This document shows positions 9,648-37,897 of a DNA stretch of 64,000 nt, piece by piece. The DNA is from a virus. The stretch's first letter is position 1; every line of letters begins with the position of its first letter. A program made the position numbers and the translations under genes. Below the pieces are notes generated by a model. The model searched no databases. It saw nothing but the letters and a program-made list of their open reading frames with translations, and was not told the origin of the DNA. The stretch lies in the IMG/VR virus record IMGVR_UViG_3300032246_000393, positions 3,329 through 67,328 of that record; one strand, 5' to 3'.

Positions 9648-9741
9648 ATAATAGTGGGAATTCAACCACTAACAACGCCGCCTAACAATGTTAGGTATAA
9701 CAACGTAGTGCAAACAAGTCCATTAACAGAAGGAGCTAACA

Positions 9742-12690: not shown

Positions 12691-12692
12691 TT

Positions 12693-15713: not shown

Positions 15714-15897
15714 AGAACTAAAGGTAATAAAAAAACGGAAAGGGCGGGGCGTAGGCAAGAAACCCGCACTATTCTGTACGAGCTTGCGACTGCCAAAGGA
15801 TGTGATGAATTACTTTAACCAACACTTCCCATACACGAAGCAAGCGAAGATGAGGGAAATTCTTGCCGACTATGTAAAACAACAAGGAGCTAATTAG
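15697..15897 (+). CDS. ribbon-helix-helix (BrnA-like) DNA-binding protein
   Basis: Basic arm RKGRGVGKKP then TSLRLPKDVMNYF...QAKMREIL..YV. Confidence 0.6.
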   Translation: MTTGIEELKVIKKRKGRGVGKKPALFCTSLRLPKDVMNYFNQHFPYTKQAKMREILADYVKQQGAN

Positions 15898-15899
15898 CT

Positions 15900-16421: not shown

Positions 16422-16441
16422 CATTGTTAGGTGCAACGTCG

Positions 16442-16465: not shown

Positions 16466-16480
16466 TTTTCTGAAACACTC

Positions 16481-16508
16481 TTGACAAAGTACAGTCTTAT
16501 GTTATATT
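16481..16508 (+). promoter_or_regulatory. promoter of replication genes
   Basis: TTGACA-N16-TATATT. Confidence 0.7.
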
Positions 16509-16541
16509 TGTGATGTGCTTTGATACGTTAGGAGTATACGC

Positions 16542-16856
16542 ATGGCAGCAACCCCAGAAGCGAAAGTTAAGAAGAAGGTTGTTGACATACTTAAAGGTCA
16601 TGGGGTGTATTACTTTTTCCCCGCGACACATGGATACGGCAGGTCAGGTGTACCCGACATAGTGTGTTGTATTAACGGTAGATTCGCAGCCTTTGAAATT
16701 AAAGCTGGTAACAATCAACCGACTGCATTACAGGAGAGGGAGATACGTTTGATACAAGAGACTAAGGGTATAGCCGCAGTCATAAGAGAAACCAACATTG
16801 ACTTGGTGACTACAATCGTTAAGGAGCTAACGCATGCCAAAGAAGGAGATAGTTAG
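16542..16856 (+). CDS. VRR-NUC (PD-(D/E)XK) nuclease, putative Holliday junction resolvase
   Basis: E..VK, GVPD, FEIKA, PTALQ. Confidence 0.88.
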   Translation: MAATPEAKVKKKVVDILKGHGVYYFFPATHGYGRSGVPDIVCCINGRFAAFEIKAGNNQPTALQEREIRLIQETKGIAAVIRETNIDLVTTIVKELTHAKEGDS

Positions 16857-21503: not shown

Positions 21504-22162
21504 GTATCGTATGGTCGTTTAGTAGCCTTAAGACTTTCCAACAGTGCCCACGCAAGTACTACCATGCGAAGGTTGCTAAAGATATAAAAGAGCAGGACAG
21601 CAAAGCAACGCTATACGGTAAACAGATGCACTTGATTGCCGAGGAGTACATCAGAGATGGTACGCCTATACCCCCTGCGTTTGATTACCTTAAGCCTACG
21701 TTAGATATGTTAGCTGCAATCCCCGGGGAGAAGTTGTGTGAGGTAAAGCTCGGCCTGACCCGCGACCTGAAAGCCTGCGACTTTGATGCCCCTGATGTGT
21801 GGTGGCATGGCATTGCCGATTTGGTAATACTTAATGAAGAAAAGGGGCTTGCACATTCGGTTGACTACAAGACCAGTAAGAGTGCACGATATGCGGATAC
21901 TAAGCAATTGGACTTGGTGGCAGCAGGTATTTTTGCTAAGTATCCGAAGATCAAACGAATCAAGTCAGCGTTGGTGTTTGTGGTTAGTAAAGAGTTTGTG
22001 AAAACCGACCACGACAAAGAAAAAGAGTCGCGGTACATAGCGCAAGTAGTACCCGACATTAAACGTATCGAGATAGCACTACAAAATAATGTATGGAACC
22101 CAGTAAGTGGGCCACTATGCAAATTCTGTGCCGTAACCCAGTGTGAATATAACAGGAGCTAA
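21500..22162 (+). CDS. Cas4/AddB-like PD-(D/E)XK exonuclease
   Basis: WSFSSL..F.QCP, GIAD, DYKT, QL, C-terminal CxxC....C. Confidence 0.88.
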   Translation: MSIVWSFSSLKTFQQCPRKYYHAKVAKDIKEQDSKATLYGKQMHLIAEEYIRDGTPIPPAFDYLKPTLDMLAAIPGEKLCEVKLGLTRDLKACDFDAPDVWWHGIADLVILNEEKGLAHSVDYKTSKSARYADTKQLDLVAAGIFAKYPKIKRIKSALVFVVSKEFVKTDHDKEKESRYIAQVVPDIKRIEIALQNNVWNPVSGPLCKFCAVTQCEYNRS

Positions 22163-22163
22163 C

Positions 22164-22364
22164 ATGGATGAAAAAGAAGCGGCGGCATATATAAAGCTGC
22201 AAGAAAACGTGCAAGAGTTAATAGTCAGTTCCGTATACGGAGAGCTTTTAGCAAACCCGCACGGGATGCTAGCAAACCACATAAAAATGCTTTTACAGCA
22301 AACAATAAAAGACGAGATGAAGCAGTACCGCGTAGTCCGCATGGGACAGACAGCCACATACTAA
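22164..22364 (+). CDS. hypothetical protein
   Basis: RBS AGGAGCTAAC-ATG. Confidence 0.7.
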   Translation: MDEKEAAAYIKLQENVQELIVSSVYGELLANPHGMLANHIKMLLQQTIKDEMKQYRVVRMGQTATY

Positions 22365-22374
22365 GGAGCTAACT

Positions 22375-22716
22375 ATGGAAAACCATCAAATTGATTCAGC
22401 ACTTTTACTTGAGAATGAACTTAAGCGTCGCGTTAAAGAAATTGTTACTGCTCAAATTGAAGAGGCTTTAGTTAAACACGTTGGCGGAATTATTCGCCAA
22501 GAGAAAGAATCTTTAATTTTTGAAATAGCTACAGGGGTAGGTAAGATAATTAGGTTAGCCGAGGAAGAAGGTCGCAAACCATTGTGGCAAACTACACCCG
22601 AAGAATTTGGTATGACAAAAGAAGAACTTAACCGATCACACATGAGTCGTAATGTTGAAATTCCAGACTTGGAGTTAAAAAAGGAGATTGATGATGCCGT
22701 ACGTAAACAAACCTAG
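22375..22716 (+). CDS. hypothetical protein
   Basis: RBS AAGGAGCTAAC. Confidence 0.7.
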   Translation: MENHQIDSALLLENELKRRVKEIVTAQIEEALVKHVGGIIRQEKESLIFEIATGVGKIIRLAEEEGRKPLWQTTPEEFGMTKEELNRSHMSRNVEIPDLELKKEIDDAVRKQT

Positions 22717-24390: not shown

Positions 24391-24414
24391 CATTGTAAAG
24401 TCTTGTGTTATATT
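24387..24414 (+). promoter_or_regulatory. promoter of SSB/primase operon
   Basis: TTGACA-N16-TATATT; spacer 12/16 identical to the 16481 promoter. Confidence 0.7.
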
Positions 24415-24521: not shown

Positions 24522-24941
24522 ATGGACGAAGTGTTAGAAGCCCCCACGGAAGTAATCCCCCTTGATACGTTGACTAAAGTCTACATAAAGATTCGGGATA
24601 AACGTGCGCAGATGAAACGTGAATTTGAAGATAAAGATTCAACATTAGAAGAACAAATGAAACAGATAGAAGCAGAGATGCTTGAAGTCTGTAAGCAAAA
24701 TAGTGCGAGTAGCATACGTACAGAACATGGCACGATCATTCGTCAAACCAAGTTACGCTATTGGACTAATGATTGGGATTCAATGTATACGTTCATAAAA
24801 GAGAACGCTGCATTTGGCCTGTTGGAGAAGAGACTTCATCAAACACACATGAAGGAGTTTCTTACCGAGAATCCAGATAAGTTCCCTATGGGGCTTAATG
24901 TGGAAAGTGAATATACCGTGGTTGTTAGACGTTCTTCGTGA
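24522..24941 (+). CDS. conserved replication-module protein (coiled coil)
   Basis: YIKIRD, SIRT..GT, DWD..Y.FI, LLEKR; typically upstream of SSB. Confidence 0.75.
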   Translation: MDEVLEAPTEVIPLDTLTKVYIKIRDKRAQMKREFEDKDSTLEEQMKQIEAEMLEVCKQNSASSIRTEHGTIIRQTKLRYWTNDWDSMYTFIKENAAFGLLEKRLHQTHMKEFLTENPDKFPMGLNVESEYTVVVRRSS

Positions 24942-26133: not shown

Positions 26134-28983
26134 ATGCCTACTTTTGACCTACTTGACGCTGTACTACCCCCTGAAGGGCGGTATTGCGTACTGGGGGTAG
26201 GTAAGTATGTAGACCAGACATTCTGGAATACACGCAAAGAAGTTGAGGCACAAACACAAAAGTTGGTTGATGGAGGCTTTGATGCGTACTTTGGTTGCGC
26301 AAAGTTTGGAGCCGCTAATAACCGCACACACAGTAACGCCCAACATTTCCGTGCGCTATGGATGGATATTGATTGTGGGCCGACTAAAGGTGTCCCTAAC
26401 GAAAAAGGAATTATCCAAGGCTACCTGACCCAAGAGGAAGGGATGGTTGAGTTCCGGAAGTTTTGCAAGGCGTACAAACTGCCTCGGCCTATATTGGTCA
26501 ACTCCGGATATGGAATACATGCGTACTGGCTACTTGAAGAAACTATCAACCGCCAAATGTGGGAGCCGTTGTCTAATCGGCTATGTGAACTTTGTGTTGA
26601 ACATGGGTTGATCGTTGACCCATCTGTGTTTGAAGCTTCTCGCGTACTGCGAACCCCCGGAACTAAAAACTTTAAGTACAGCACCGAAGCTGACGTGTTC
26701 GTAATGAGTGAAGAAACCACTCGACTGTCTTATGAACACATCAAAGAATTACTAGGCGCACCAGACCCCGCGCCAGAAAAACCTGATTTTCTTCCGTCAA
26801 AGCTAAGCCCTTTGATGGAGTCGATGATGGCAAACAAGGTCAAGAAGTTTAAGACCATCATGATTAAGTCGGCGCACGGTGAAGGTTGTCAACAGCTACT
26901 ACACTGCTACGAGAATCAAGAAAGCATTCCGTACGACTTGTGGCGCTCGGCGTTGTCTATTACTGCGTTCTGTATAGATAAGGACGTAGCTGCACACCGC
27001 ATGTCGGAGAAGTATCCTGAGTACGACGCATCTGAAGTTGAGCGCAAGCTAGATGACTTAGTGCGCACCGGAGGCCCACACCGTTGCACTACGTTTGAAA
27101 AGTACAACCCAACTGGGTGTGACGGTTGCCCCCATAAAGGCGTTATCGTTTCGCCGATAGTATTGGGTGTGGAGATAGCCGAGGCTGACGAAGAAGATAA
27201 CGTGGTAGAAGTGGAAGAAGCGGGGGAAACTCAAACCTATCGTATTCCAGAGTACCCATTTCCTTTCTTCCGTGGCAAGAACGGTGGGGTGTATCGCAAA
27301 CCTGCTGAAGGTGAAGACGACCCTCACTTAGTTTACGAAAATGATTTGTATGTAGTTAAGCGTATGCAAGACCCCGGATCAGGTGAGACGTTGCTGTTTA
27401 GGCTGCACCTACCGAGAGACGGAGTGCGGGAGTTTTCCGTGCCATTAGCAAACGCAGTCGTTAAAGAAAAACTTAGAGATTCATTAGCACCGCATGGCGT
27501 TGCCCCTTCGGGCAAACAGGTAGACTTGTTACTAATGTACGTCATGACGTTTGTGAAGAACCTACAACACCAGAACAAGGCAGAGATTATGAGGACACAA
27601 TTTGGTTGGGTAGACAACAACAGCAAGTTCATACTTGGGGATCGGGAGATCACGAAAGACGGAGTATTCTATAGCCCTCCGTCGGCGGCTACAAAGGACG
27701 TTGCCGAGATGCTGTACCCAAAAGGGGAGTTCGACAAATGGAAAGAAGTATTCAACATGTACGCGCTGCCGGGGTTAGAGCCTCATGCGTTTGCCGCACT
27801 TACAGCTTTTGGTTCTCCCTTGCTAAAGTTTACGGGTTTGAGCGGTGCAATTATCAACGTGATTCACGAGAGTTCCGGTTCGGGAAAATCGACTGCACTT
27901 TATATGTGCAACAGCGTCTATGGTGAGCCGCAAAAGTTAGCGTCTATTTGGAAGGACACATTCAACTCCAAGATGCACCGACTCGGCGTACTGAACAACT
28001 TGCCTAATACGATTGACGAAATAACGAATACTACACCGATGGAGTTCTCTGATCTGTCATACAGCATCAGCCAAGGCCGTGGTAAGAACCGCATGAAAGC
28101 ATCTACTAACGAGATGCGTCTGAATAACACTACGTGGCAAGGCATAACCTTAGCATCGTCAAACGCTAGCTTTTACGAGAAGCTTGGTTCAGCTAAGAAC
28201 TCTCCTGACGGTGAGTCGATGCGTCTGTTGGAATACGCTATCAGACCCAATAGCATTATTGATGTAGCTGTAGGTAAGCAGATGTTTGACCATCAGTTGC
28301 TTGAGAACTTTGGGCACGGTGGGGAAGTGTACGCACAGTGGCTGGTCAACAACCTAGAAGATGCGCAAGCATTACTGGCTAAGGTACAGGCTAGGATTGA
28401 TAAGGCTGTGCAGTTTACTAGCCGAGAGCGTTTCTGGTCGGCAGTGGCGGCATGTAACATCACAGGCGGTTTGATTGCTAGAAGTCTTGGGTTGCACGAC
28501 TACGATATGGCTGCAGTGTACGAGTGGTTATTGAAGATGCTTGGTGAGATGCGCGAAGATATTAAGCCTCCAAAATCCAACCCAGCTATTTTGCTTGGTG
28601 AGTTTATTAACAGCCACATGAACAACGCATTAGTAGTTAATGGCGAGATGGATGCCCGAAGTAACATGGAAGCGATGCCGTTATGGGAGCCGAGGGGCGA
28701 GCTACTGATACGATACGAGCCAGATAATAAGCACCTGTACGTAGCAGCAAAGCAGTTCAAAGACTTTTGCGTCAAGCAGCAGGTTAACTACAAGGCTATG
28801 TTGAAAGAGCTACAAGATGCAAACGTGTTTGTTGAGGGTATGAACAAGCGCATGTCCAAGGGGATGAAGGTTGTCTCCCCTGCTGTTAGGGTGCTTAAGT
28901 TTGATGCCTCTTCAAATGAGTTTATCCAGATGGATGGTTTTATACCGACCAATGAAAATAGAGACAGTCAACTACAACATTGA
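26134..28983 (+). CDS. primase-helicase (AEP/RepB-like primase, Zn domain, DUF927-type helicase)
   Basis: WMDID, SGYGIHAYW, RVLR.PGT.N; C..F......C..C.H; QFGW; Walker A SGSGKST, IDE. Confidence 0.85.
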   Translation: MPTFDLLDAVLPPEGRYCVLGVGKYVDQTFWNTRKEVEAQTQKLVDGGFDAYFGCAKFGAANNRTHSNAQHFRALWMDIDCGPTKGVPNEKGIIQGYLTQEEGMVEFRKFCKAYKLPRPILVNSGYGIHAYWLLEETINRQMWEPLSNRLCELCVEHGLIVDPSVFEASRVLRTPGTKNFKYSTEADVFVMSEETTRLSYEHIKELLGAPDPAPEKPDFLPSKLSPLMESMMANKVKKFKTIMIKSAHGEGCQQLLHCYENQESIPYDLWRSALSITAFCIDKDVAAHRMSEKYPEYDASEVERKLDDLVRTGGPHRCTTFEKYNPTGCDGCPHKGVIVSPIVLGVEIAEADEEDNVVEVEEAGETQTYRIPEYPFPFFRGKNGGVYRKPAEGEDDPHLVYENDLYVVKRMQDPGSGETLLFRLHLPRDGVREFSVPLANAVVKEKLRDSLAPHGVAPSGKQVDLLLMYVMTFVKNLQHQNKAEIMRTQFGWVDNNSKFILGDREITKDGVFYSPPSAATKDVAEMLYPKGEFDKWKEVFNMYALPGLEPHAFAALTAFGSPLLKFTGLSGAIINVIHESSGSGKSTALYMCNSVYGEPQKLASIWKDTFNSKMHRLGVLNNLPNTIDEITNTTPMEFSDLSYSISQGRGKNRMKASTNEMRLNNTTWQGITLASSNASFYEKLGSAKNSPDGESMRLLEYAIRPNSIIDVAVGKQMFDHQLLENFGHGGEVYAQWLVNNLEDAQALLAKVQARIDKAVQFTSRERFWSAVAACNITGGLIARSLGLHDYDMAAVYEWLLKMLGEMREDIKPPKSNPAILLGEFINSHMNNALVVNGEMDARSNMEAMPLWEPRGELLIRYEPDNKHLYVAAKQFKDFCVKQQVNYKAMLKELQDANVFVEGMNKRMSKGMKVVSPAVRVLKFDASSNEFIQMDGFIPTNENRDSQLQH

Positions 28984-29146
28984 TTGGTCTAAGTTCCACA
29001 GGGGGTACTCTATTTTTGTACCCTGCATTGACCATAAGGCGGCTTTTGCTGAAGTACACCGTGTTACAAAAAGGTTAAAGATACCCGTGGTGACTAAAGT
29101 CGTTATAGAGGAAGGAGTGAAAGGGCTAAGAGTTTGGAGAATTTAG
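28952..29146 (+). CDS. small conserved protein, last gene of + arm
   Basis: W..F..G.SIFVPC...GLRVWR. Confidence 0.7.
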   Translation: MKIETVNYNIDWSKFHRGYSIFVPCIDHKAAFAEVHRVTKRLKIPVVTKVVIEEGVKGLRVWRI

Positions 29147-29160
29147 GTTATACTAATTTC

Positions 29161-29220
29161 CGAAAGGTTAGCTCCTTTCTCTCGCTTTTGCCCCCGTGAC
29201 CTCTTCCGGGGGCTTTTTTT
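29161..29220 (+). ncRNA. candidate anti-Shine-Dalgarno small RNA
   Basis: TATACT at 29149-29154; hairpin GAAAGG-TTAGCT-CCTTTC; terminator; GTTAGCTCCTT is the reverse complement of shared RBS AAGGAGCTAAC. Confidence 0.55.
29190..29220 (+). terminator. intrinsic terminator at the convergence point
   Basis: GCCCCCG...CGGGGGC-TTTTTTT. Confidence 0.8.
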
Positions 29221-32200
29221 ACTTGCCTTCCCTAGCCCTTCGTTCCATCACTTCCTTATTGCGTTTATCTATTTCTTTCGTAGCACTCAACGCAGTTTCT
29301 GCAGCTACTGGGATAAACTTCTCATCCACCGGCATACCACTCCACTCTTGGGTAGTAGCCATTTGCTCTTCGCGCTTGTCGATAGAATTAGACAGTTGAT
29401 CGTCGTCGATACCAAACTCTGGATACTTTGTGTTGAACTTTTCAATCTTATCAAGTTGTTTCACATACCCATCAAAGTTACCTGTGCGCTGACCATTGAA
29501 GAACTCTCTAGTAGCATTGTTCATAAGCTTAGTGCGTTCTATCTCAACCCGCTGACGAGCAGAATTAAGTTTAAACGCCACTTGTTGTGGATGCGACAGA
29601 ATGTCTGGACGGAAACCAATAGACTGCCCCAACAACTCACCTGTAGTAAATCCACCCTGCAAGATTAAGTCAGACCCTTTGGTGTCTCTTGCACCTTCAG
29701 TAGCGTACTTGTGCGCCATAATAAAGTTACGTATCAATGCAGGTGACATCTTCTCAATGCCCTTTTGATAGTCCCCGTTACCAAAGGCTTCGTATGCGTC
29801 GGCTAAGGAAAGAATCATTGCAGCCGAGGGGCCAGACTTCTCCATTGCTATAGCTACTGCACTCTCCCTAGCGGTCTTTGTTTCTTTAGTGTCGCGCAAC
29901 CACAAGTCATTCAAGCTAGTGCGAGATGCAATATCAAGTCCAGTGACGTAATTAGCTAAGCCACGGTCTGCAACTTCTACTAACGGTACGCCAGCAATCT
30001 TCATATCACCCAAGACTTCAGGTAGCCAAACGGTGCGCCACCATGTCTCGTAATCCATATCTTTAAACTCTTGCGGCTTGTCTTCATCACGCCACATCCA
30101 ACCAAGTAAGCCCATGACCATACTAAACATAGGTAAGCCAGACGCACCAGCCAAAACTGCAGTCGTGCCGAGAGTGCCAAAGAAAATCTTAGTAGACTCC
30201 CACTTACCTTCTTTGTTTAGTAGCGGCAACATGCGCTTGAAGTTACGCATTAAGAACAGCGTTACATGTAACGGATACATGGTGAACTGCAGGGCTACTT
30301 TACCTAAGCCCTTTTGCATAATCAGTGGGCGGTTGTACTGACCATAGTTACCAAGAGCTTCGTTCGTATCAATAACTGCTTGGTTTACTGACTCATCGTG
30401 TGATTTACCAGCTTTGCGGTTTAGGCGGTACGAAGCTAGATATACCATCTCCCGCGACAGGCGCTCGGTCGAGTGCATCAAACCACCCGTGACCATAGCT
30501 GCACCCCGCTTAGTCATGTTCCATGCCCCGCTAATATCTTCAGTCGGCGTGCTTTTGTACCCAAACATAGCACTGGCATAGGTAGATTGAGACACGTCAC
30601 GACCTAGCATTTCACGGATTGCACGCTTCTCATCATTGGTCATACCTTTAGCATTAGCAATACTTGGAGGTACAAATGACACCGAGCCATCTGGGTTTGT
30701 GCGAAACACACCGTATTGATCCCACACACGCAACATCTTTAGTAACTCACGAGAGCCATTGATCTGCCCATAACGAGACATAAGGATTGGTGCGCCAGTC
30801 TGGAATACGCCAAGTGGTTGCAACAACGCAGAAGATGCACCCGACAGATACCATAGGAACGCTGAACGGTTTAAAAAATCCCCCGTTCTATCTAGTGCAG
30901 TGCGTCTATCAGGACTGAGTTGATTAGTTACGCGAGCTTGCATTTCCGTGATGAACGGTTGCAAATCTTCTCTACCTACGATGGAATCCTGAGCCGCAGA
31001 TAGTGAGTTACGTAGAAGTGGGGCGTACTTAATCTTAGCCAACTGGGTTGCCATCTTAACGCCAGTAGTGGAGAAGTTACGCAACAAGTCAACAGAGAAA
31101 CCTGTGATGTTTTTACGACTAATAAACTGCCGACGGAAGCTTTGCTCCGGCATCGTGGTTAGATAAAGCTGGTATATAGAGTCTTTCAACTCTTCCCGTA
31201 CATCTGGGCTGCTAAAATCTTCTGAGTCGATGATGTCAAACAAACTCTTCAGTAGAGTACTGGAGTTAAACGAGGCACGACGCAAAGTGCCGATGTCGTT
31301 ACCCAACACAAAGTCTTGGTCAGCTTTCAGTTCATCTAAAGAAGTCCGACGCTCTTTCGCCATTGCTTCGGCTGCAGCATCACGCTCAGCCATAGTTTCA
31401 AACGTAAAGAATTGACGGTGTTTGCCAGAGCCAACAGCTAAAAAGAAATCCCCTCGGCGAACCAAAGGTATATAAGGTTTAATCTTTTGGCCTGTCTCGT
31501 ATATCTCACGAATCTTAGCCATCAAACGGTTCTGTGTTTCTGTCGATGTGCGTGAGCTAGCAATCTGCTCGTCAAGTAATTGGGCAAAGTAATCTGACAT
31601 GTTCTGGTAGTGATCCAGAATTAGCTTGTATATCTGCTGCCCTTTAGCCCCCAAGTCTTTGTACATTTGGTCGAGTACAGGACTACGTTCTGTAGCATTA
31701 GGGTCAGATGGATCAACCTGCGCTATCGTTGACGCATACGCAATGTTCTCTAACTTGTTCTTTAGTGTTTTGTCTTCCTTAAACGCTTTGTGTATGGTCT
31801 TAGCCATAATCGCCGACGAGTTCAACAGCTGCTGTGTTAAGCCGCTCATCTTCTCCAACAGCACGTTGGTGTTCATCAACTCAGGTACATACGACGCACT
31901 CCATCGAGCCAAGAACTCTGTAGTCGGTAGTTTAACTAAAGCCAAACGCTGGGCGTAGTTAGCCGTTCTCCATAGCCTACGCATGGTTGGCACAATCTTA
32001 CGTGGGTCACGTAGGGCTTGGAGTATTTTAGATTGACGTGCAGTTTCCTCAGCATCACGACCAATGCGCACTTTCTCAATTGCTATGGCTACTTCTTTAT
32101 CTATTTCTTTTTGCGTCCTTACTGCGTCCGCTCCATCCTCCGCAGTTTCGCCACCAACTCCGGCACCGACGCCGCCTTGTCCAGTACTTTGATAGCTTGG

Positions 32201-35200
32201 CCCAAGGCTTCCGGATATTCCGCGTCCGGATTCTTCTCCTGCATCGCCAGTGCCTGCCATTGCTTGAGCAGCGCTTGCATCTCCGGCTTCGATGGCGCTA
32301 GCGTCTTGGAAGCGGTTTCCACGAGGTTCGATATTTCCATTTTTAAACTCTCCATTTAGGAAGTCAAAGATATTTATGTTTTTTTGAATATGGTCGGTAA
32401 GTCTTTTCTTAGCGTCGGCCAAATCAAATGTTGGGTGCGTTTCCAGCAAATTCATAATAAGTTGCATTTCCGAAGCAAAGCCAGCCCCGTGCCCACGTTC
32501 TCTATGGTGCGCCATTTCATGAATCATTGTGCCTATCATAGACACTGCAACTTGTCGTGAATTACCAGTCAACGAAGTTGTGGCTGGATTGATATACAAC
32601 CCGCTAAACGGCACGCGAATACTTACCCCGTAGTATTCTTTATCTAGACTTACACCTATGGCTTCATTAAGTATGCTTGTAAATTTTCCATTATGTTCTG
32701 TAGCAAGTGCGTTACGCAACTCCATAAAAATGTTGCCAATACCAACTAAGTACTCATCATATTTTTTACCAAATGTCTCACGAGCCACTTCAGACAAAGT
32801 TGCCTGTTTAGTTTCAAACGGACGTTGTATGTGTACCCCACGATCACCTAATCGGTTAATTAAGTACTCTATATTTCTTCCGTGAACTACAGTTCTAACA
32901 GCACCTTCTACTAAGGGGCCAGTTGCTACAAACCGTTTAATAGTACTAGTGGGGTCTTCTTCAACTGTCCAACCTTCTGGTAATTGCGCACGTAAATTGT
33001 CAAGAGTAAGTCCTGATGTAGAAGTAGCGGTTTTTGATAAGGTGTTGTCGTGCACCATCACACGTTTTGTATCAATCTTATTTTGTGGGATTGTTAGTTC
33101 ATCAACGCGAACTACAGTATTTTTAAGGTCATCATCAGTAAGTTCTGGTACAGCACGGCCATTGACATACATAACACCTTCACGAATTTCAACCTTATCA
33201 TCAGGTTTAATCATAGTGAAGGCAGTTGGCGTAGTCGGGGCTTCTGGAACAAGTTCTTCTGGCGCAGTTAATGTACCGTCAGCATTGACGTATTGAATTT
33301 GCCCAAAGCTCTTACTTTCTTCTGCAAGAGATTGCTGTTGGTAAATAACAGTGATGTACTTAAATATTTTATCAAAGTCACTTCGTATAGATGGCGAAAA
33401 CCCTTGACGGTTTAAATCAAATGGGTAACCCGCATCTTCAGGTTTTACTTTAGGGTCTACGTCAATATAAAAGTTACGTTTAATTTTTTCACCGTCCCAG
33501 CCCGGGCGATCTTTAATATTGGTATCAAACTGCCACAAACCATTTGATAAGATATGTGTGTTGTCTCTAGGTAAATAATCTTGTGTTTCTTTTTGGACGT
33601 ACACACGGGCTGTACCCCAATCAAAATTGACGTTGGCAAATGCGGTGTAATCATCAATAGGAAAATTTGCACCAATAGGCAATGTTTTTGGATTGCCGTA
33701 CGCATCTATAGTAACTTCAATATTGTCAAATAGTGGGCTATCCGTAAGTACTTTACTAGTTTCTAATTGCCATGTTTCAAATGGAATATTTTTTTCTTCC
33801 CCAGTAGATGCGTCTTTAAAAGTTTTAGGGATTTGCACAACGATGGTCGTGCCGTGACCGTCAGGGAATGTGCTATCAACATACTGCTTAATTACTTTGG
33901 AGTCGGTAGACGTTGTAATTTTTGGTGCTAGGCTTGGATCATCTAACGCAGCCATAACTTCATCGCCCGTAGTTACCATGCGGGCTAACACACCATCGCG
34001 CAACGATACTACTTCTAGCTTTTCGTTACCAAACAAAAACAACATCTTGGCAATACCTAAACCACCCGATGCACGATCAGTTTCTTTTACAGTACCCGCA
34101 ATTGTAAGAAATTCGTTACCCATTACAGACGCAGGCATGCCAAGGCCGTTATCGGTTACAGTAATAGTGCGAGCCTTTTCGTCTAGCTTAATAGCAATCT
34201 TGCCGTCTGTAAGTTGACCTTTTTCTATTGCGCCTTTAATTGCGTCGAATGAGTTTTGGAATATTTCTTTGATCGACACCTTTGCAATATCGGTTGGATC
34301 ACCGTACAACTTAGCACCTAACAGCGCAGCCAGACGTTTAGCATTTGCCGACGGTTTGGATGTAATCGTTTCTCCTGCAAACCCAGTTGTTGTGTCTTTT
34401 GGTTTACCAAACCCAAATAATGCCATTGGGGACAGACCTTCAGTCAAATCAAGTTGACCGACAGGGCGAGCAGTTAAGATGCTGTCAACTGCAACAAGTA
34501 AATCACCGAGTGCGTTGGTGTCATCTTCAGTCATACCAACCAAGCGACGTAGTGCATCAACAAACATAGACCAGTACGACGTAGTTCCACCAAGAGCACC
34601 AGCAGACTTTAAGAATTGCTGGAACCCTTCATCTGTCATGCCATACGCAATGAACTCACGTGGGTCATCGAATATTTCACCAAACTGAGCCAGTCGAGAA
34701 ATGTTGTCAGGGAGTTTGCCTTGCGACGCAAGTTCGTTAAACCTATCTCCAGCGTTGTTCATTATCTGGATTAAGTCTTCTGTAGCACGTACAAGCTGAG
34801 TGCCCTTGTGTAGACCTTTGCTAATAGCTTGTCGGCCTAGCTCTACTTTCTTATTGGTAGTCGCGTGCCACAACTCATGCAGCATCGTAATGTTGTTAAC
34901 GCCTTGCGCATCGCCAAAGGAAGCACCGCGCACATAAATAGTTTTAGCCCCGGTTGCGTAGTTCTCAATAAACATAGCACGTGCACGATCCCAGCTACGC
35001 TGATGCTCTGGGGTTTTAGTTATGCCTTCTGGAAGCGGATCGTTAGCTTCAACAACTACAATCTTGACGTTACCTACAAAGCTACGCAGACGTTTAGCCA
35101 ACGCTTTTTGGAAATCATTACCTGTCTTAATGATCTGAGTAATGGCTTGCGCACCGTTAGTAACTTTGCCAAGTTTTGGATCAGCTACGGTTTGAGCCGC

Positions 35201-37897
35201 TACTTGTTCAACAGCTTTAGATGCCGACTCTGATCTTTGCTTGCGTAGTTGGTGCCCAGCTTCTGCAGTCTGAATTTCTCTTGGCGTTGCTTGTGCCAAC
35301 AATGCTTTAGCACGTGCGCCCGGTTTGCCACGATTAGTTTTAGAAACATCGTAGAGTTTATTGATAGCAAACTGGCGCTGCCTAGCTTTTTCAGCTTGCA
35401 TGTCAAGCAGGTGATCCTCAGACGTAGCTTCGCCTTCTTCAACCGGTTCGGCTGATTGAGCTAAATCACGTTCCGCATCATTGACTTGTTTCTCTACTGC
35501 TTTATAAGCCGTGCGTTGTTGTTTGCGTTTTTCTTCAGAAGTTAGTTTAGCTGCGGGTGCGAGCCTCGGCCTTCCTCTTTTGCCGGTTGTGGTGGGAACA
35601 CCGGCCTCTGTTTCTGCTCCTTGCGCTTCTGTTTGCTCGGCTTCAGTGGTTTGAGAGACACTGGCTTCCTCCTGTTGGGCTTTGGTTAACTGTTGTTGCG
35701 CACTGCGTACGTTTTCCCGTTCTCTAGTAATGTCCCAAACATTACCGGATTGCTCTGCTGCTTTAAAAGAGTTTTGAGCGGCGGTTAATCTATTCTGAGC
35801 GGCGTTTACTTTTTGCTGTGCTTGTTCTAATGCACTCGGCTGAACCGCTTTTCCTTGAGTAAGTTCTCCAGTAGCTGTTTCAGTAGGAACCAATCCAATG
35901 GCGAGAGGCGCACCAACTCCTCCGGCAGGTACTCCAACTGCTCGTTCGCCAGACACCCCAGCGCCAACTCTACCTGCTCCAGTGATAGGTTTTCCAACAT
36001 TTGTGACTCCTTGTTCCGCCAACGCGTCATTCTCAGCTTCCTGTTGTGCCATAAATACCGCACGTGCTGCGGCTTCAATTGGGGACATCCCCGCATCAAT
36101 TAAGTCGTTTGTTATTTCTTGTATACGAGTTTCAGCAGCTTCTATAAGTGTTGGGCGTTTAGCTACCTCAGCTTGCATTTCATCTTGGCGCTTTTGTTCT
36201 TGCTCTTCTTGCGCACGTACGCGACCCTCCGCTATTTTCATAGCAGTGTCAGGGTCAATACCACTTGTCTCTACCAACTTAGTAGCAATATCATCTACTT
36301 GGGATTGGCGGCGCGTAGCTTTCTCTTCCGCAGTTGGTGGGGCTAACGTAGGCTCAACACGTTTAGTAACTTCGCCAGCTTTTTCACCAGCAGCTGCTTC
36401 CATCACAGTTTCAGTTGTAGCTTTGCCCGACGCAGTACGTGAAGGCTTAACCAAGAAACCTTTTTCCCGCATAAGCTGCTCGGCGGTTGGTATTGGTTCT
36501 TCTGCTTCAGGTTTTTGAAATGCGTTTACGCCTTTCTCTAGCGCCTTAGTGCCTCCTGTCATTAAGCCAGACTGTATTACGGTTTGCACCGTGGTGTCGG
36601 CCATTTGTTGCAAGTAGTCGTCTAACGTCGCGTCTTTGTTTAAACCAATTGCCGACTTGTCCGTTACAAACTGCCCCGTAGTAGTTAAGTACTCACCGGG
36701 TAATTCTTTCTTTAATGTGTTGCCCAAGAAAGATTTAAGTTCATCAGTTTTCATACCGCGAGTTGCTCGGCGCAAATTATCCAGTTCAAATTTCAAACCA
36801 AACCGTTCACCAATAACTTCAAACGCCCCAAACAATCCTGCACGTGTAGCAGCTTCAGCGCCATCCAACCCTTTAGCTCTACCTTCAGAGTATTCTTGGC
36901 CAAACGACTGTAGGAACATGGAACCAAGCACGTAGGCTTCTGATCCGGATATAGCACCACCAAACAATGCTGGGAGTTGTTGGGCAATTGAACTGACTGC
37001 GCCTTCAAACTGCCTAGCTAAATAGTTGGGGTTTTGCCCCATTGATTCCACGCCAATACGGGATTCTTTAGCTCCAGCCGCCTGCGTACGTGCAAATTCA
37101 TCTGCGCCTATTAGTTCAGCTACAGCTTGGTTAACACCAAGCGCACCTTGTTTAAAACCTTCATACCCAGCAACGCCAGCCCTAATTAAAGGATTAGCAT
37201 TACGGTACTTTTCAGCCATTTCAAAATCAAAGTCAGTCTTCTCCAACGTACCTTGGCGCTGCATAAATTGGATTTCTTTACCCGGTAGCACTCCAGCAGC
37301 GGCAGCTTCTTCAGCTGCGGCTCGCGCAAACTCAGGTTTTTCACCTTCACCAATTAAACGACTAGTACGGCTTTCAACACTAGTGTCGTATTTTTCCATC
37401 CCTTCAAGTAAACCGGGGGTTGCTTGGCCTGTACGTATTTGTTTTTTAACTTCCGCAGTACGTTTTTCTTGCCTAGTCTGGAATTTTTTAGCGTACTCAC
37501 GGATCACATCTCCAGCAACGCCGGGGAGTGTCATCTCCATATAAGCACGTTCTTCTGGGGATGCCGAGTTGTACTTGGCAATTAAAGCTTGACGGACTTC
37601 AGGGCGAATAGGGAGGAAACCAGTTTTATCTGGTTCCCCTTTAGGGGCGTTCTTCATTACGCCAAGGTCACGCTCGGCTACATCCATAATAGATGCGCCT
37701 ATGTCGCTACCCATAGAATCGTAAGACGCAGGGGGTTTGGAGAGAACTGGTTGTTTCTTTGCTGGGGCGGGTGCCGCCGCAGTTTCTTTAAACGGGTTTG
37801 GCGTGGTTGCTAGGGGGATAAACGCCATTTCCCCTGAGTCCTCCGCTTCGTTAGTTGTTGCTTTTGTATCTTCTTTTGAAAGCGGAGTAAATTCCAT
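29219..37897 (-). CDS. giant polyvalent ejection (internal virion) protein with GHKL ATPase, two zincin motifs and PLxRFG-like region
   Basis: 2892 aa, last late gene; IKEIFQNSFDA, DNGLGM, GGLGIA; HELWH, HEMAH; YIPLVRRG. Confidence 0.8.
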   Translation of the reverse strand: MEFTPLSKEDTKATTNEAEDSGEMAFIPLATTPNPFKETAAAPAPAKKQPVLSKPPASYDSMGSDIGASIMDVAERDLGVMKNAPKGEPDKTGFLPIRPEVRQALIAKYNSASPEERAYMEMTLPGVAGDVIREYAKKFQTRQEKRTAEVKKQIRTGQATPGLLEGMEKYDTSVESRTSRLIGEGEKPEFARAAAEEAAAAGVLPGKEIQFMQRQGTLEKTDFDFEMAEKYRNANPLIRAGVAGYEGFKQGALGVNQAVAELIGADEFARTQAAGAKESRIGVESMGQNPNYLARQFEGAVSSIAQQLPALFGGAISGSEAYVLGSMFLQSFGQEYSEGRAKGLDGAEAATRAGLFGAFEVIGERFGLKFELDNLRRATRGMKTDELKSFLGNTLKKELPGEYLTTTGQFVTDKSAIGLNKDATLDDYLQQMADTTVQTVIQSGLMTGGTKALEKGVNAFQKPEAEEPIPTAEQLMREKGFLVKPSRTASGKATTETVMEAAAGEKAGEVTKRVEPTLAPPTAEEKATRRQSQVDDIATKLVETSGIDPDTAMKIAEGRVRAQEEQEQKRQDEMQAEVAKRPTLIEAAETRIQEITNDLIDAGMSPIEAAARAVFMAQQEAENDALAEQGVTNVGKPITGAGRVGAGVSGERAVGVPAGGVGAPLAIGLVPTETATGELTQGKAVQPSALEQAQQKVNAAQNRLTAAQNSFKAAEQSGNVWDITRERENVRSAQQQLTKAQQEEASVSQTTEAEQTEAQGAETEAGVPTTTGKRGRPRLAPAAKLTSEEKRKQQRTAYKAVEKQVNDAERDLAQSAEPVEEGEATSEDHLLDMQAEKARQRQFAINKLYDVSKTNRGKPGARAKALLAQATPREIQTAEAGHQLRKQRSESASKAVEQVAAQTVADPKLGKVTNGAQAITQIIKTGNDFQKALAKRLRSFVGNVKIVVVEANDPLPEGITKTPEHQRSWDRARAMFIENYATGAKTIYVRGASFGDAQGVNNITMLHELWHATTNKKVELGRQAISKGLHKGTQLVRATEDLIQIMNNAGDRFNELASQGKLPDNISRLAQFGEIFDDPREFIAYGMTDEGFQQFLKSAGALGGTTSYWSMFVDALRRLVGMTEDDTNALGDLLVAVDSILTARPVGQLDLTEGLSPMALFGFGKPKDTTTGFAGETITSKPSANAKRLAALLGAKLYGDPTDIAKVSIKEIFQNSFDAIKGAIEKGQLTDGKIAIKLDEKARTITVTDNGLGMPASVMGNEFLTIAGTVKETDRASGGLGIAKMLFLFGNEKLEVVSLRDGVLARMVTTGDEVMAALDDPSLAPKITTSTDSKVIKQYVDSTFPDGHGTTIVVQIPKTFKDASTGEEKNIPFETWQLETSKVLTDSPLFDNIEVTIDAYGNPKTLPIGANFPIDDYTAFANVNFDWGTARVYVQKETQDYLPRDNTHILSNGLWQFDTNIKDRPGWDGEKIKRNFYIDVDPKVKPEDAGYPFDLNRQGFSPSIRSDFDKIFKYITVIYQQQSLAEESKSFGQIQYVNADGTLTAPEELVPEAPTTPTAFTMIKPDDKVEIREGVMYVNGRAVPELTDDDLKNTVVRVDELTIPQNKIDTKRVMVHDNTLSKTATSTSGLTLDNLRAQLPEGWTVEEDPTSTIKRFVATGPLVEGAVRTVVHGRNIEYLINRLGDRGVHIQRPFETKQATLSEVARETFGKKYDEYLVGIGNIFMELRNALATEHNGKFTSILNEAIGVSLDKEYYGVSIRVPFSGLYINPATTSLTGNSRQVAVSMIGTMIHEMAHHRERGHGAGFASEMQLIMNLLETHPTFDLADAKKRLTDHIQKNINIFDFLNGEFKNGNIEPRGNRFQDASAIEAGDASAAQAMAGTGDAGEESGRGISGSLGPSYQSTGQGGVGAGVGGETAEDGADAVRTQKEIDKEVAIAIEKVRIGRDAEETARQSKILQALRDPRKIVPTMRRLWRTANYAQRLALVKLPTTEFLARWSASYVPELMNTNVLLEKMSGLTQQLLNSSAIMAKTIHKAFKEDKTLKNKLENIAYASTIAQVDPSDPNATERSPVLDQMYKDLGAKGQQIYKLILDHYQNMSDYFAQLLDEQIASSRTSTETQNRLMAKIREIYETGQKIKPYIPLVRRGDFFLAVGSGKHRQFFTFETMAERDAAAEAMAKERRTSLDELKADQDFVLGNDIGTLRRASFNSSTLLKSLFDIIDSEDFSSPDVREELKDSIYQLYLTTMPEQSFRRQFISRKNITGFSVDLLRNFSTTGVKMATQLAKIKYAPLLRNSLSAAQDSIVGREDLQPFITEMQARVTNQLSPDRRTALDRTGDFLNRSAFLWYLSGASSALLQPLGVFQTGAPILMSRYGQINGSRELLKMLRVWDQYGVFRTNPDGSVSFVPPSIANAKGMTNDEKRAIREMLGRDVSQSTYASAMFGYKSTPTEDISGAWNMTKRGAAMVTGGLMHSTERLSREMVYLASYRLNRKAGKSHDESVNQAVIDTNEALGNYGQYNRPLIMQKGLGKVALQFTMYPLHVTLFLMRNFKRMLPLLNKEGKWESTKIFFGTLGTTAVLAGASGLPMFSMVMGLLGWMWRDEDKPQEFKDMDYETWWRTVWLPEVLGDMKIAGVPLVEVADRGLANYVTGLDIASRTSLNDLWLRDTKETKTARESAVAIAMEKSGPSAAMILSLADAYEAFGNGDYQKGIEKMSPALIRNFIMAHKYATEGARDTKGSDLILQGGFTTGELLGQSIGFRPDILSHPQQVAFKLNSARQRVEIERTKLMNNATREFFNGQRTGNFDGYVKQLDKIEKFNTKYPEFGIDDDQLSNSIDKREEQMATTQEWSGMPVDEKFIPVAAETALSATKEIDKRNKEVMERRAREGK

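What the first reader, a model, noticed from the sequence alone, without database searches (positions are those of the whole stretch)
29149..29220. Candidate phage sRNA antisense to the shared early-gene RBS (multi-target translational shut-off)
Seen: the 72-bp gap between the convergent arms holds a -10 box (TATACT 29149-54, no clear -35), a hairpin GAAAGG-UUAGCU-CCUUUC (29162-79) and an intrinsic terminator, together a ~60-nt unit. Nucleotides 29167-77, GUUAGCUCCUU, are the exact reverse complement of AAGGAGCUAAC. That sequence is the RBS at 9730, 16821 and 22363, and nearly so at 22154, 15884, 12683, 6008 and 10811. The loop UUAGCU exposes the part pairing with the non-SD spacer AGCUAA while the anti-SD is hidden in the stem. 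This would give specificity for tagged phage mRNAs over host or late mRNAs. A given 11-mer is expected about 0.015 times per 64-kb strand. Known: loop-initiated pairing and SD occlusion are standard antisense mechanisms. Inference: a barcode-RBS/sRNA system, made last in the early arm, that switches off a set of early genes.
Basis: partly seen in the sequence, partly recalled or inferred. Interest (0 to 1): 0.92.

Follow-up and report, generated by a model that had tools for sequence, protein, structure and literature searches.

The report
Conserved phage anti-ribosome-site small RNA
Between the two converging gene blocks of this uncultured 67-kb phage lies a small RNA gene, kept in every related phage examined, whose exposed stretch mirrors the ribosome-docking sites of the phage's own early genes and has changed together with them in several lineages, so it probably turns early protein synthesis down, although nobody has yet seen the RNA.

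Summary
TATACT (29149-54), the hairpin 29162-79, an intrinsic terminator (29190-29220) and the minus-strand copy of AAGGAGCTAAC at 29167-77 are all present. The 11-mer is exact at three early RBSs and near-exact at two more.

The unit is not a chance gap. In 147 of 147 loci, counting the window, a TAnAnT box sits exactly 2 nt after the stop of a 64-aa ORF. TTG lies 17 bp upstream in 123 of 147, and a terminator follows. Of 106 distinct bodies, 101 carry CTCC (22 expected). Stems keep pairing through G-U and compensatory changes on the + strand.

Each phage's own ("cognate") RNA/RBS pairs show exact complements of 11 nt or more in 17/1355 cases, against 7/6298 mismatched pairs. Several compensatory changes were found. 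The main family-wide target is the first gene of the operon that the RNA terminates. This window does not match that gene. It matches five CTAAC-type RBSs instead.

The CTAAC tag is half of a family-wide DNA palindrome that does not covary. No RNA data exist.

Verdict: a probable phage sRNA that represses early-gene translation. The "barcode" reading is only partly supported. This scan noted the same kind of thing before, on other phage DNA.

The parts
28952..29146 (+). 64-aa ORF, last gene of the early arm. Its last codons (G-L-R-V-W-R-I) carry the -35 position of the RNA's promoter.
   Evidence: ORF. No Pfam or PHROG family. Only viral hypothetical clusters in the Atlas. The ORF is conserved before the unit in all 147 loci.
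29126..29131 (+). -35 position, 17 bp before the -10 box. It reads CTAAGA here (weak, 3 of 6). Relatives have TTGCGN.
   Evidence: TTG at this place in 123 of 147 loci. The spacing is fixed because the box lies exactly 2 nt after the stop codon in 147 of 147.
29149..29154 (+). -10 box TATACT
   Evidence: T1, A2, A4 and T6 are invariant in 147 of 147 loci. Variants are TACACT 56, TAAACT 37, TAGACT 20, TATACT 18, TATAGT 6, TATAAT 4, TACAGT 3, TACAAT 2, TAAAGT 1. One of the window's strong early promoters also uses TATACT.
29161..29220 (+). Predicted small RNA of about 58-60 nt. The start is inferred 6-8 nt after the -10 box. The end is in the U run.
   Evidence: Fold: -23.8 kcal/mol, z = -3.8. 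The 5' end is inferred from promoter geometry and has not been observed.
29162..29179 (+). 5' hairpin GAAAGG / UUAGCU / CCUUUC
   Evidence: The same hairpin type (GAAAG-UUAGYUC-CUUUC or GGAAG-UUAGCUC-CUUCC) occurs in distant relatives L040, L140, L189, L194 and L198.
29167..29177 (+). Seed GUUAGCUCCUU: anti-SD core CUCCUU plus GUUAG, the complement of the CTAAC spacer
   Evidence: exact reverse complement of AAGGAGCTAAC. CTCC is present in 101 of 106 distinct bodies against 22.2 in shuffles.
29180..29189 (+). Single-stranded U-rich linker UCUCGCUUUU
   Evidence: Unpaired in the fold.
29190..29220 (+). Intrinsic terminator: stem 29190-29213, seven U at 29214-20. It is shared with the last early operon and overlaps the stop codon of the minus-strand 2892-aa gene.
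   Evidence: Found in all 147 loci, some with an imperfect stem or an interrupted T run. Compensatory stem changes: CG 15 / UA 3 and GC 14 / AU 3. No T run follows on the minus strand.
9730..9740 (+). Predicted target RBS of gene 9742-10806 (AAA ATPase), 11 of 11 nt
   Evidence: second-best net energy, -8.3. The ortholog in G005 reads GAAGGAGCTACA and its RNA reads TGTAGCTCCTTC.
15884..15893 (+). Predicted target RBS of gene 15900-16421 (DUF3310 domain), 10 nt
   Evidence: Orthologs are matched with 11-12 nt in L051 and L075.
16821..16831 (+). Predicted target RBS of gene 16834-17112 (92 aa, no family), 11 of 11 nt
22154..22163 (+). Predicted target RBS of gene 22164-22364 (66 aa), 10 nt
   Evidence: This RBS type is conserved in the family without covariation.
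22363..22373 (+). Predicted target RBS of gene 22375-22716 (113 aa), 11 of 11 nt
   Evidence: best net energy, -8.6.
24522..24941 (+). First gene of the last early operon (promoter at 24387-24414). Its orthologs are the commonest target in relatives, but this gene is not matched in this window.
   Evidence: promoter; 13 of the 31 own pairs with 10 nt or more involve this gene. The window pair shares only 5 nt. PHROG 13900 and a weak DUF7307 hit.
29219..37897 (-). 2892-aa late gene whose stop codon and last codons lie in the terminator's U run
   Evidence: Weak GHKL ATPase hit.

Best explanation
The 72-bp gap is a small-RNA gene on the + strand. A host sigma-70-type promoter has its -35 inside the last codons of the 64-aa ORF and its -10 two bases after the stop codon. 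It would start an RNA of about 58-60 nt at about 29161-62. The RNA ends at the intrinsic terminator that also closes the last early operon, so the same RNA could also arise by processing of that operon's 3' UTR.

The RNA carries a pyrimidine stretch, CUCCUU, that is complementary to Shine-Dalgarno sequences. Its flanking bases give it a preference for particular mRNAs. In this genome the flank is GUUAG. The seed GUUAGCUCCUU can therefore form 10-11 uninterrupted pairs with the RBS AAGGAGCUAAC of five early genes (9742, 15900, 16834, 22164, 22375). Pairing would begin in the loop UUAGCU, open the 6-bp stem, cover the ribosome site and lower translation. That would be a delayed negative loop on early functions.

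Shown by sequence comparison: the conserved unit, its strand, its anti-SD core, and joint change of seed and RBS in several lineages.

Inferred: that the RNA is made, its 5' end, repression rather than activation, timing, and any helper protein such as Hfq.
For: 1. Anatomy is confirmed.

2. Promoter. All 147 of 147 loci keep a TAnAnT box exactly 2 nt after the stop codon, and 123 of 147 have TTG 17 bp upstream. Only the positions that matter most for sigma-70 are invariant. The window's five strong early promoters are of the sigma-70 type, and one has TATACT as its -10 box.

3. Terminator. A terminator hairpin with a T run is present in all 147 loci, some with an imperfect stem or an interrupted T run.

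4. Structure on the + strand. The first hairpin and the terminator keep pairing through changes: pair 16-31 is GC 11 / GU 4 / AU 3, pair 15-32 is UG 9 / CG 8, and the terminator pairs are CG 15 / UA 3 and GC 14 / AU 3. G-U pairs would be mismatches on the other strand.

5. Anti-SD core. CTCCTT occurs in 74 of 106 distinct bodies (shuffles give a mean of 3.4 and a maximum of 9). CTCC occurs in 101 of 106 (22.2, maximum 32). AAGGAG occurs in 0 of 106. The core is unpaired between hairpins in most of the 12 folded relatives.

6. Joint change of seed and RBS.
- Exact complement of 11 nt or more: 17 of 1355 distinct own pairs against 7 of 6298 mismatched pairs. At 10 nt or more: 31 of 1355 against 37 of 6298.
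- For the ortholog of gene 24522: 10 nt or more in 10 of 84 against 7 of 2666; 11 nt or more in 6 of 84 against 0 of 2666.
- Compensatory cases: L049 CAAGGAGAAAA with UUUUCUCCUUG versus L182 CAAGGAAAAA with UUUUUCCUUG; L148 and L179 ACTGAAGGAGA versus L154 ACCGAAGGAG, each with a matching RNA; L140 has two seeds that cover one RBS.
- The window's ATPase RBS GGAGCTAAC with GTTAGCTCC versus G005's GGAGCTACA with TGTAGCTCC.
- Permutation over one representative per clade gave p = 0.003-0.005 for the longest match. Other representative sets gave p = 0.003-0.09.

7. The seed GTTAGCTCC recurs in scattered lineages (primase identity 64-96%): window, L002, L124, L128, L040/L140, L189, L199. RBSs with GGAGCTAA are commoner in loci whose RNA carries TAGCTCC: 12 of 139 against 27 of 1464.

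8. In the window the six best net energies among 80 RBSs all belong to early genes.
Against: - No transcript has been seen. No listed sequencing run is on record as RNA, which is no evidence either way.
- The window's own -35 is poor (3 of 6) and the site fails the 9-of-12 promoter scan.
- The seed is half buried. Opening the hairpin costs about 7 kcal/mol, so net energies are modest, -8.6 to -4.1.
- Many lineages show no extended match. 73 of 84 distinct pairs for the main target have 7 nt or fewer. G007, G010, G002, G011, G013 and G014 have maxima of 7-9 nt.
- Duplex-energy versions of the own-versus-swapped test were not significant (p = 0.12-0.30), and the first energy ranking was mixed.
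- Eight of 12 ortholog groups showed no preference for the phage's own RNA.
- The RBS word GGAGCTAA is frequent in genomes whose RNA does not match it (G004), and the 22154-type RBS shows no covariation.
- CTAAC may be kept for a DNA-level reason, the palindrome.
- Gene starts were called by a crude script of my own. Loci are related, so the counts overstate the number of independent events. Some metagenome loci duplicate IMG/VR contigs, so I counted distinct sequences.
Confidence: 0.55

Rival explanations
1. The small RNA is real, but its conserved CUCCUU stretch acts mainly on host messages, or acts as a general competitor for Shine-Dalgarno sites by mimicking the 3' tail of 16S rRNA. Matches to phage RBSs would be side effects of carrying an anti-SD.
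For: The only family-wide invariant of the body is the anti-SD core. Most lineages show nothing beyond 5-7 nt against the main phage target. The window's GCUCCUUUCU resembles the usual 16S 3' tail; that is my recollection, not tested.
Against: Long exact matches are enriched in own pairs, and the flanks change with the RBS. A general competitor needs no such flanks. The host is unknown, so no host target could be examined.
Confidence: 0.15
2. There is no separate RNA. The gap is only the 3' UTR and terminator of the last early operon, with protective hairpins. The TAnAnT box and the RBS complement have no function.
For: The terminator is needed anyway for two converging arms. Distant cultured relatives have only a terminator or no gap there (RHph_TM27A and Rollin). 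The window's -35 is weak.
Against: In 147 of 147 loci the box sits at a fixed 2 nt from the stop codon, with only the sigma-70-critical positions invariant. CTCC is enriched in 101 of 106 bodies. Compensatory changes occur with distant RBSs. Even without its own promoter, a processed 3' UTR fragment would still be the same regulator.
Confidence: 0.1
3. The RNA works in cis as an antisense partner of late transcripts that read through from the 2892-aa gene. It would trigger their cleavage or stop convergent transcription from entering the early arm.
For: On the minus strand the hairpin is not followed by a T run, so read-through is likely. The RNA would be fully complementary to it. Antisense RNAs at arm junctions are known in phages (passages in PMC10914365).
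Against: This does not explain the conserved CUCCUU, the fast-changing body, or the matches to RBSs 7-20 kb away. It can coexist with the main reading.
Confidence: 0.1
4. GTTAG in the gap is a DNA half-site of the palindrome CTAACAWTGTTAG, which is probably bound by a protein. The RBS 'tag' would be the other half-site, so the match would reflect a shared DNA motif, not RNA pairing.
For: The palindrome occurs 12-19 times in the early arm of each of the 6 genomes tested.
Against: The gap has a single half-site without the palindrome's flanks. The complement extends 6 nt further into the SD. Most relatives have other flanks and no GTTAG at that place. G005 changed seed and RBS together, away from the palindrome sequence.
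Confidence: 0.05

Closest known systems
c4 antisense RNA of phages P1 and P7 (Rfam C4)
   Same: A phage-encoded small RNA that acts in trans on the phage's own mRNA by pairing around a ribosome-binding site, with the complementary bases thought to sit in loops. It is made from the same transcription unit as its target (passages of the review PMC12197685).
   Different: No Rfam match. c4 serves immunity in temperate phages and has one target operon. Here the unit has its own promoter box, an anti-SD core, changing target sets, and sits at the end of the early arm.
Cuckoo / CcsR1-4 (alpha-r14) sRNAs of Alphaproteobacteria
   Same: Small RNAs that display an anti-SD-like pyrimidine motif in hairpin loops, with variable stems (abstract of PMC4615179). 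They derive from the 3' UTR of a small-protein gene (abstract of PMC8034643).
   Different: The defining loop motif CCUCCUCCC is absent, and there are not 2-4 repeated hairpins each bearing it. The upstream 64-aa ORF has no DUF1127. This one is phage-borne and its targets are phage genes.
Start-associated sequences (SAS) of cluster K mycobacteriophages
   Same: An extended, asymmetric RBS word shared by a subset of non-structural genes, with bases that cannot pair with 16S rRNA. The paper mentions rare copies in the opposite orientation (its Fig. S3 legend says three of its genomes each hold a single such site). The authors left open whether a phage RNA or protein binds it (passages of PMC3203893). 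Passages of a 2025 study still speak only of a 'proposed role' (PMC12699233).
   Different: Different sequence and host group. Here the tag is half of a DNA palindrome. No RNA partner is reported for SAS in the passages I read. I did not examine the reversed SAS copies.
sRNAs made from the 3' end of a gene with their own promoter inside the upstream coding sequence (DapZ and MicL type; recalled, no call)
   Same: The promoter overlaps the end of the upstream gene. The RNA shares the mRNA's terminator. There is a short seed and a U-rich tail.
   Different: Expression and Hfq dependence are untested here. It is phage-encoded.
T4 RegB endonuclease and RegA repressor (recalled; PMC3014915 seen only in a search listing)
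   Same: A functional analogue: a phage shuts off a set of its early messages through their ribosome-binding sites.
   Different: Those are proteins. Here an RNA is proposed.

Membership tests
Rfam families (all 4227, including C4 and alpha-r14) | Match at or above the family's gathering score | tested here: not met
   0 matches in the window; the best sub-threshold match is ncS54 at 22.5 bits against a gathering score of 43, covering the linker, the terminator and the last bases of the hairpin (29175-29220).
c4 RNA (P1/P7) | Loop sequences complementary to the target mRNA at or near its RBS | tested here: met
   The loop UUAGCU plus stem bases complement AAGGAGCUAAC. This shows it works like c4, not that it descends from c4.
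c4 RNA (P1/P7) | Cut out of the immunity operon transcript; role in immunity of a temperate phage | not testable with these tools
   There are no RNA data. No integrase or repressor search was made.
Cuckoo / CcsR | 2-4 adjacent hairpins, each with the loop motif CCUCCUCCC | tested here: not met
   The window has one such hairpin, with loop UUAGCU. CCTCC occurs in only 5 of 55 bodies of the first set.
Cuckoo / CcsR | Lies in the 3' UTR of a DUF1127 small-protein gene | tested here: not met
   It does lie after a 64-aa ORF, but that ORF has no Pfam family.
Hfq-type trans-acting sRNA (architecture) | Rho-independent terminator with a U tail of 6 or more and a U-rich stretch before it | tested here: met
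   Seven U after the stem, and CUUUU before it. A terminator hairpin with a T run is present in all 147 loci, some imperfect.
Hfq-type trans-acting sRNA (architecture) | Binding to Hfq and dependence on it | not testable with these tools
   The host is unknown and there are no data.
sRNA gene with its own sigma-70 promoter | -10 and -35 hexamers at 16-18 bp, conserved among relatives | tested here: met
   TAnAnT in 147 of 147 loci, TTG at -35 in 123 of 147, 17-bp spacing fixed. The window's own -35 matches only 3 of 6.
sRNA gene with its own sigma-70 promoter | A primary transcript starting after the box | not testable with these tools
   No RNA holder is listed.
SAS-like shared RBS tag | The same extended word immediately before the start codons of a subset of genes, beyond what 16S pairing needs | tested here: met
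   Three exact and two near-exact copies lie before starts. GGAGCTAA is the top GGAGnnnn word, 8 of 113.
SAS-like shared RBS tag | The tag follows the RNA's seed across relatives | tested here: inconclusive
   Yes for the window clade versus the G008, G009 and G012 clade, and for single genes. No for G001-G004 and for the 22154-type RBS.

The most novel reading that the evidence does not exclude
This large family of uncultured phages carries a fast-evolving 'translation timer' RNA. It has a fixed anti-Shine-Dalgarno core, and its flanks are rewritten lineage by lineage to pick which early genes are silenced. Often the target is the first gene of the very operon that ends in the RNA, which would be a self-limiting loop. 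In this genome the seed has instead captured the CTAAC-tagged ribosome sites, so that one 60-nt RNA could shut off at least five early genes at once. If so, it is a concrete RNA partner for 'start-associated' RBS tags of the kind left unexplained in mycobacteriophages since 2011. Together with the similar cases this scan met in unrelated phages, it would mark anti-RBS RNAs as a general phage strategy for early shut-off.
Probability: 0.35. Interest if true: 0.85.

Novelty: new variant of a known kind. Interest (0 to 1): 0.74.

Why it matters
Shut-off of early genes is well understood in only a few model phages, and there it is done by proteins. Trans-acting small RNAs of lytic phages that regulate the phage's own genes are barely documented. 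The 2025 review passages I read list mainly prophage RNAs and cis antisense RNAs. My two literature searches for a phage anti-SD sRNA found no such case.

This RNA candidate comes with 106 natural sequence variants and several natural compensatory mutations in its predicted targets. That is close to a ready-made genetic test. It also suggests a testable answer to why some phages tag a subset of ribosome-binding sites with extra conserved bases (the SAS question). The unit is 72 bp and the targets are short leaders, so reporter tests in a laboratory strain are simple.

Tried and rejected
- Near-identity search of GenBank phages: no match. A protein search found only relatives at or below 29% identity. 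Two of these were inspected. Rollin has no gap and RHph_TM27A has only a terminator, so no cultured phage with the unit was found.
- Rfam: nothing at gathering score. Only weak hits that mostly cover the terminator at loose thresholds.
- Expression: no RNA holder listed. The listed runs were DNA contigs, many with small shares. I did not lay reads and I draw no habitat from them.
- First energy test of own versus other RNAs over 57 loci: mixed ranks. I abandoned it because body length confounds it. Energy traces were not significant (p = 0.12-0.30).
- Test of 'seed equals the complement of the most frequent GGAGnnnn word': true for the window (8 of 113) and near-true for G005. False for G001-G004.
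- Per-ortholog energy test: 4 of 12 groups had p below 0.03 (9742, 11028, 24522, 24949) and 8 did not. The 15900 group fell out through my N-terminal filter.
- Single-linkage clustering of bodies collapsed 138 loci into 7 clusters and was replaced. Strictly dissimilar lineage sets for the main target were too small (mean 5.5) to have power (median p = 0.26).
- Covariation at the conserved 22154-type RBS: none.
- A minus-strand gene or RBS remnant: rejected by reading. No start codon follows AAGGAG on the minus strand in the window, and no minus-strand ORF of 40 aa or more lies in the gap. G-U pairs fit only the + strand.
- A peptide in the unit: the window has no ATG there. 46 of 147 bodies contain an ATG, not conserved.
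- My recollection that PAK_P3 sRNA2 matches many phage RBSs was wrong. The paper's passages say otherwise.
- The 64-aa ORF as an RNA chaperone (by analogy with CcaF1): no support. No structure was predicted.
- Supplements of the papers were not opened. SAS site tables in supplements of PMC3203893 and PMC12699233 could bear on the reversed-copy comparison.
Full report
**What is there.** The window is bases 3329-67328 of a 67,328-base virus record rated complete. Genes run leftward up to about 5.4 kb, rightward from about 6 to 29.1 kb, and leftward again from 29.2 kb. The rightward arm holds replication and early genes: DNA polymerase, helicase, primase-helicase and an AAA ATPase.

The rightward arm ends with a 949-aa primase-helicase (26134-28983) and a 64-aa ORF (28952-29146). 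The leftward arm ends with a 2892-aa gene whose stop is at 29219-21.

AAGGAGCTAAC is exact at 9730, 16821 and 22363 on the + strand. It occurs once on the minus strand, at 29167-77. Counting one-mismatch copies there are 7 sites against 1.19 expected, and no shuffle of 100 reached 7. The RNA 29161-29220 folds into the 5' hairpin, a free linker and the terminator: -23.8 kcal/mol, z = -3.8.

**Is it more than a gap with a terminator?** GenBank holds no close relative. IMG/VR holds 498 stretches that encode a related primase, and JGI and other metagenome contigs hold 309. I held the best 80 of each.
- Of the first 80, 72 reach through the gap. All 72 have the same layout.
- Of the second 80, 74 reach through it. 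All 74 have the unit: 65 by script and 9 by eye, because their box is TATAAT or TACAAT or their terminator is imperfect.

Counting the window, that is 147 of 147 loci. Some metagenome contigs duplicate IMG/VR ones, so I also count distinct sequences: there are 106 distinct bodies, where a body is the stretch between the predicted start and the terminator.

A TAnAnT hexamer lies exactly 2 nt after the stop codon in 147 of 147 loci. Only T1, A2, A4 and T6 are invariant. Those are mostly the positions that matter most to sigma-70, and the third base takes all four values.

Seventeen base pairs upstream, inside the codons for Leu-Arg of a conserved G-L-R-V-W, 123 of 147 loci read TTG, mostly TTGCGN. 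The fixed 2-nt distance from the stop codon is what a 17-bp promoter spacer demands.

The window's own early promoters are strong sigma-70 sites with an extended -10, at 5915, 7130, 9619, 16481 and 24387. One of them uses TATACT. I found no phage RNA polymerase among the proteins I scanned, so the host enzyme plausibly reads this arm. This window's own -35 is poor (CTAAGA).

**Strand and structure.** The terminator has a T run only on the + strand.

In 18 relatives that share the first hairpin, the pairs vary as RNA pairs do: GC 11 / GU 4 / AU 3; UG 9 / CG 8; and in the terminator CG 15 / UA 3 and GC 14 / AU 3. G-U pairs would be A-C mismatches on the other strand.

Twelve relatives folded singly give a 5' hairpin in 7 of the 12, often a second hairpin, and the terminator. 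Eight of the 12 had z-scores below -2.5.

**The conserved content.** The bodies are 19-71 nt long and otherwise very variable.
- CTCCTT occurs in 74 of 106 (shuffles: mean 3.4, maximum 9).
- CTCC occurs in 101 of 106 (shuffles: 22.2, maximum 32).
- The forward SD word AAGGAG occurs in none.

In most folded relatives this stretch is unpaired between hairpins. In the window, L140 and L189 it spans a loop and the 3' arm of a stem. The unit has the anatomy of a trans-acting small RNA with an anti-Shine-Dalgarno seed. No Rfam family matches it.

**Does the seed follow the ribosome sites?** An anti-SD matches any SD, so only the flanks are informative. I called + strand gene starts with a crude script: ORFs of at least 40 codons with an SD 3-12 nt upstream. 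I then measured the longest exact complement between each body and each RBS window. "Own" pairs below match a phage's RNA with its own RBSs; "mismatched" pairs take the RNA from a dissimilar lineage.

- Over all loci, 17 of 1355 distinct own pairs reach 11 nt, against 7 of 6298 mismatched pairs. At 10 nt the figures are 31 of 1355 against 37 of 6298.
- Thirteen of the 31 involve one gene, the ortholog of window gene 24522-24941. It is the first gene after the promoter at 24387, and so the first gene of the operon that the unit terminates.
- For that gene alone, 10 of 84 distinct own pairs reach 10 nt against 7 of 2666. Six of 84 reach 11 nt against 0 of 2666.

The matched sequences differ between lineages, and both partners differ together:
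- CAACCAAGGAGAAA (L051).
- CAAGGAGATAG (L066).
- AGGAGAATCA (L028).
- GAAGGAGCTAAC (L140, where a second seed covers CCTGAAGGAG of the same RBS).
- ACTGAAGGAGA (L148, L179) against ACCGAAGGAG (L154).
- L049 CAAGGAGAAAA against L182 CAAGGAAAAA, where a G-to-A change inside the SD is met by a C-to-U change in the RNA.

Between the window and G005, the ATPase RBS changes from GGAGCTAAC to GGAGCTACA and the RNA changes from GTTAGCTCC to TGTAGCTCC.

A 16-genome matrix shows blocks. Window-clade RNAs match window-clade RBS sets, with 11-12 nt and 3-5 sites of 9 nt or more. RNAs of G008, G009 and G012 match their own sets with 12-16 nt. Neither group matches the other's sets as well: cross-clade maxima are 7-11 nt, mostly 7-10.

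With one representative per clade, permuting the RNAs gives p = 0.003-0.005 for the longest match and p = 0.004-0.013 for the mean of the best three. Other choices of representatives give p from 0.003 to 0.09.

- The joint change of seed and RBS is patchy. 73 of 84 distinct pairs for the main target share only 4-7 nt. Six of the 16 genomes have nothing beyond 9 nt.
- Duplex-energy versions of the tests are not significant.
- The 'barcode' CTAAC is the left half of the palindrome CTAACAWTGTTAG. It stands 12-19 times in the early arm of each of the six genomes tested and does not change among them (first noted in e1-6196964). Several tagged RBSs are whole palindromes with the ATG at their centre.
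- GGAGCTA words therefore stay frequent in genomes whose RNA carries other flanks (G004: 8 such words, with an RNA complement of GGAGAGAA).
- The family-wide AACAGGAGCTAAC site of the 22154 type shows no covariation.
- The main family target is not matched in this window (5 nt).

The most economical reading is this. The RBS words are older and are kept for their own reasons. The RNA's flanks wander, and they have repeatedly landed on them. The seed GTTAGCTCC recurs in scattered lineages at 64-96% primase identity. RBSs with GGAGCTAA are commoner in loci whose RNA carries TAGCTCC: 12 of 139 against 27 of 1464, though these loci are not independent.

**In this genome.** A simple accessibility-corrected ranking (duplex energy plus the cost of opening both partners) puts six early genes first among 80 RBSs: 22375, 9742, 22164, 12693, 17109 and 15900. 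Gene 16834 ties for eighth. Opening the hairpin costs about 7 kcal/mol, so the net values are modest, -8.6 to -4.1. It is an inference.

**Mechanism and rivals.** The best-supported reading is a phage small RNA that pairs with ribosome sites of its own early messages and lowers their translation (confidence 0.55). It may be made from its own weak promoter, or cut from the operon's 3' end.

The rivals are:
- The same RNA aimed at host messages or acting as a general SD competitor (0.15).
- No separate RNA at all (0.10).
- A cis antisense role against late read-through (0.10), which could coexist with the main reading.
- A DNA half-site (0.05).

No transcript has been seen, and no RNA run is listed for this DNA.

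**Comparison with what is known.** It works like c4 RNA of P1 and P7, a trans-acting phage RNA that pairs at an RBS (review passages). It also works like the anti-SD hairpin RNAs of Alphaproteobacteria that derive from the 3' UTR of a small-protein gene (abstracts). It fails the defining tests of both families.

The shared RBS tag resembles the start-associated sequences of cluster K mycobacteriophages. Their binding partner, 'either RNA or protein', was left open in 2011, and the paper mentions rare copies in the opposite orientation (passages). Passages of a 2025 study still call the role 'proposed'.

My searches for a phage anti-SD sRNA returned no described case of a lytic-phage RNA that silences a set of its own early genes. 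They cover open-access texts only.

This scan has noted the same kind of thing in other, unrelated phage genomes, with the same partly supported verdict. I did not test those notes. They gave me the cuckoo-RNA lead.

**Verdict.** This is a new variant of a known kind. What stands out is the depth of natural variation: 147 loci, 106 variants and several compensatory pairs, with a simple experimental test available.

Noticed in passing
window 5880-18270 (e.g. 5880, 6622, 7454, 10816, 12574, 13443); also G001-G005: The palindrome CTAACAWTGTTAG (often with CC/GG flanks) stands 16 times in the window's early arm and 12-19 times in the early arm of each of five relatives. Its sequence is unchanged across 68-89% primase identity. 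Several copies have the ATG of a gene at their centre. It is probably a protein-binding site. It is the source of the CTAAC spacer.
   Followed up: partly
relatives, e.g. L013:7025-7045, L034, L074, L189, L194, L201: The loop and 3' arm of the first hairpin keep the word GCAGTTGC in many otherwise diverged lineages. It may be a second seed or a protein site. The window's clade has lost this hairpin altogether.
   Followed up: no
window 29190-29221 and relatives: [quoted passage not shown] In many relatives the stop lies in the terminator loop (CTAATCA). The hairpin is thus under coding and structural constraint at once.
   Followed up: no
window 5915-5943, 7130-7158, 9619-9647, 16481-16508, 24387-24414: Five near-consensus sigma-70 promoters with an extended -10 (TG), all on the + strand before early operons. 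Clean terminators lie at 6586-6605 and 16441-16460. The early arm looks host-transcribed, in at least five units.
   Followed up: partly
window 15884-15899: The RBS of gene 15900 contains its own perfect 12-nt palindrome, AGCTAATTAGCT, between the SD and the ATG.
   Followed up: no
L140:5321-5385: This relative's RNA has two anti-SD seeds that complement overlapping parts (GAAGGAGCTAAC and CCTGAAGGAG) of one RBS, that of the gene-24522 ortholog.
   Followed up: partly
window 28952-29146: The 64-aa ORF before the unit is kept in all relatives with a nearly fixed C-terminus, GLRVW(R/K)x. It has no known family. Its last codons double as the -35 region, so protein and promoter constrain the same bases.
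   Followed up: partly
L123:4558-4621 (Rhizobium phage RHph_TM27A) and L122:4771 (Pseudomonas phage Rollin): The nearest cultured relatives (25-29% primase identity) keep the primase, small-ORF and converging-arm layout. They have only a two-way terminator or no gap, so the RNA unit seems confined to the uncultured family.
   Followed up: yes
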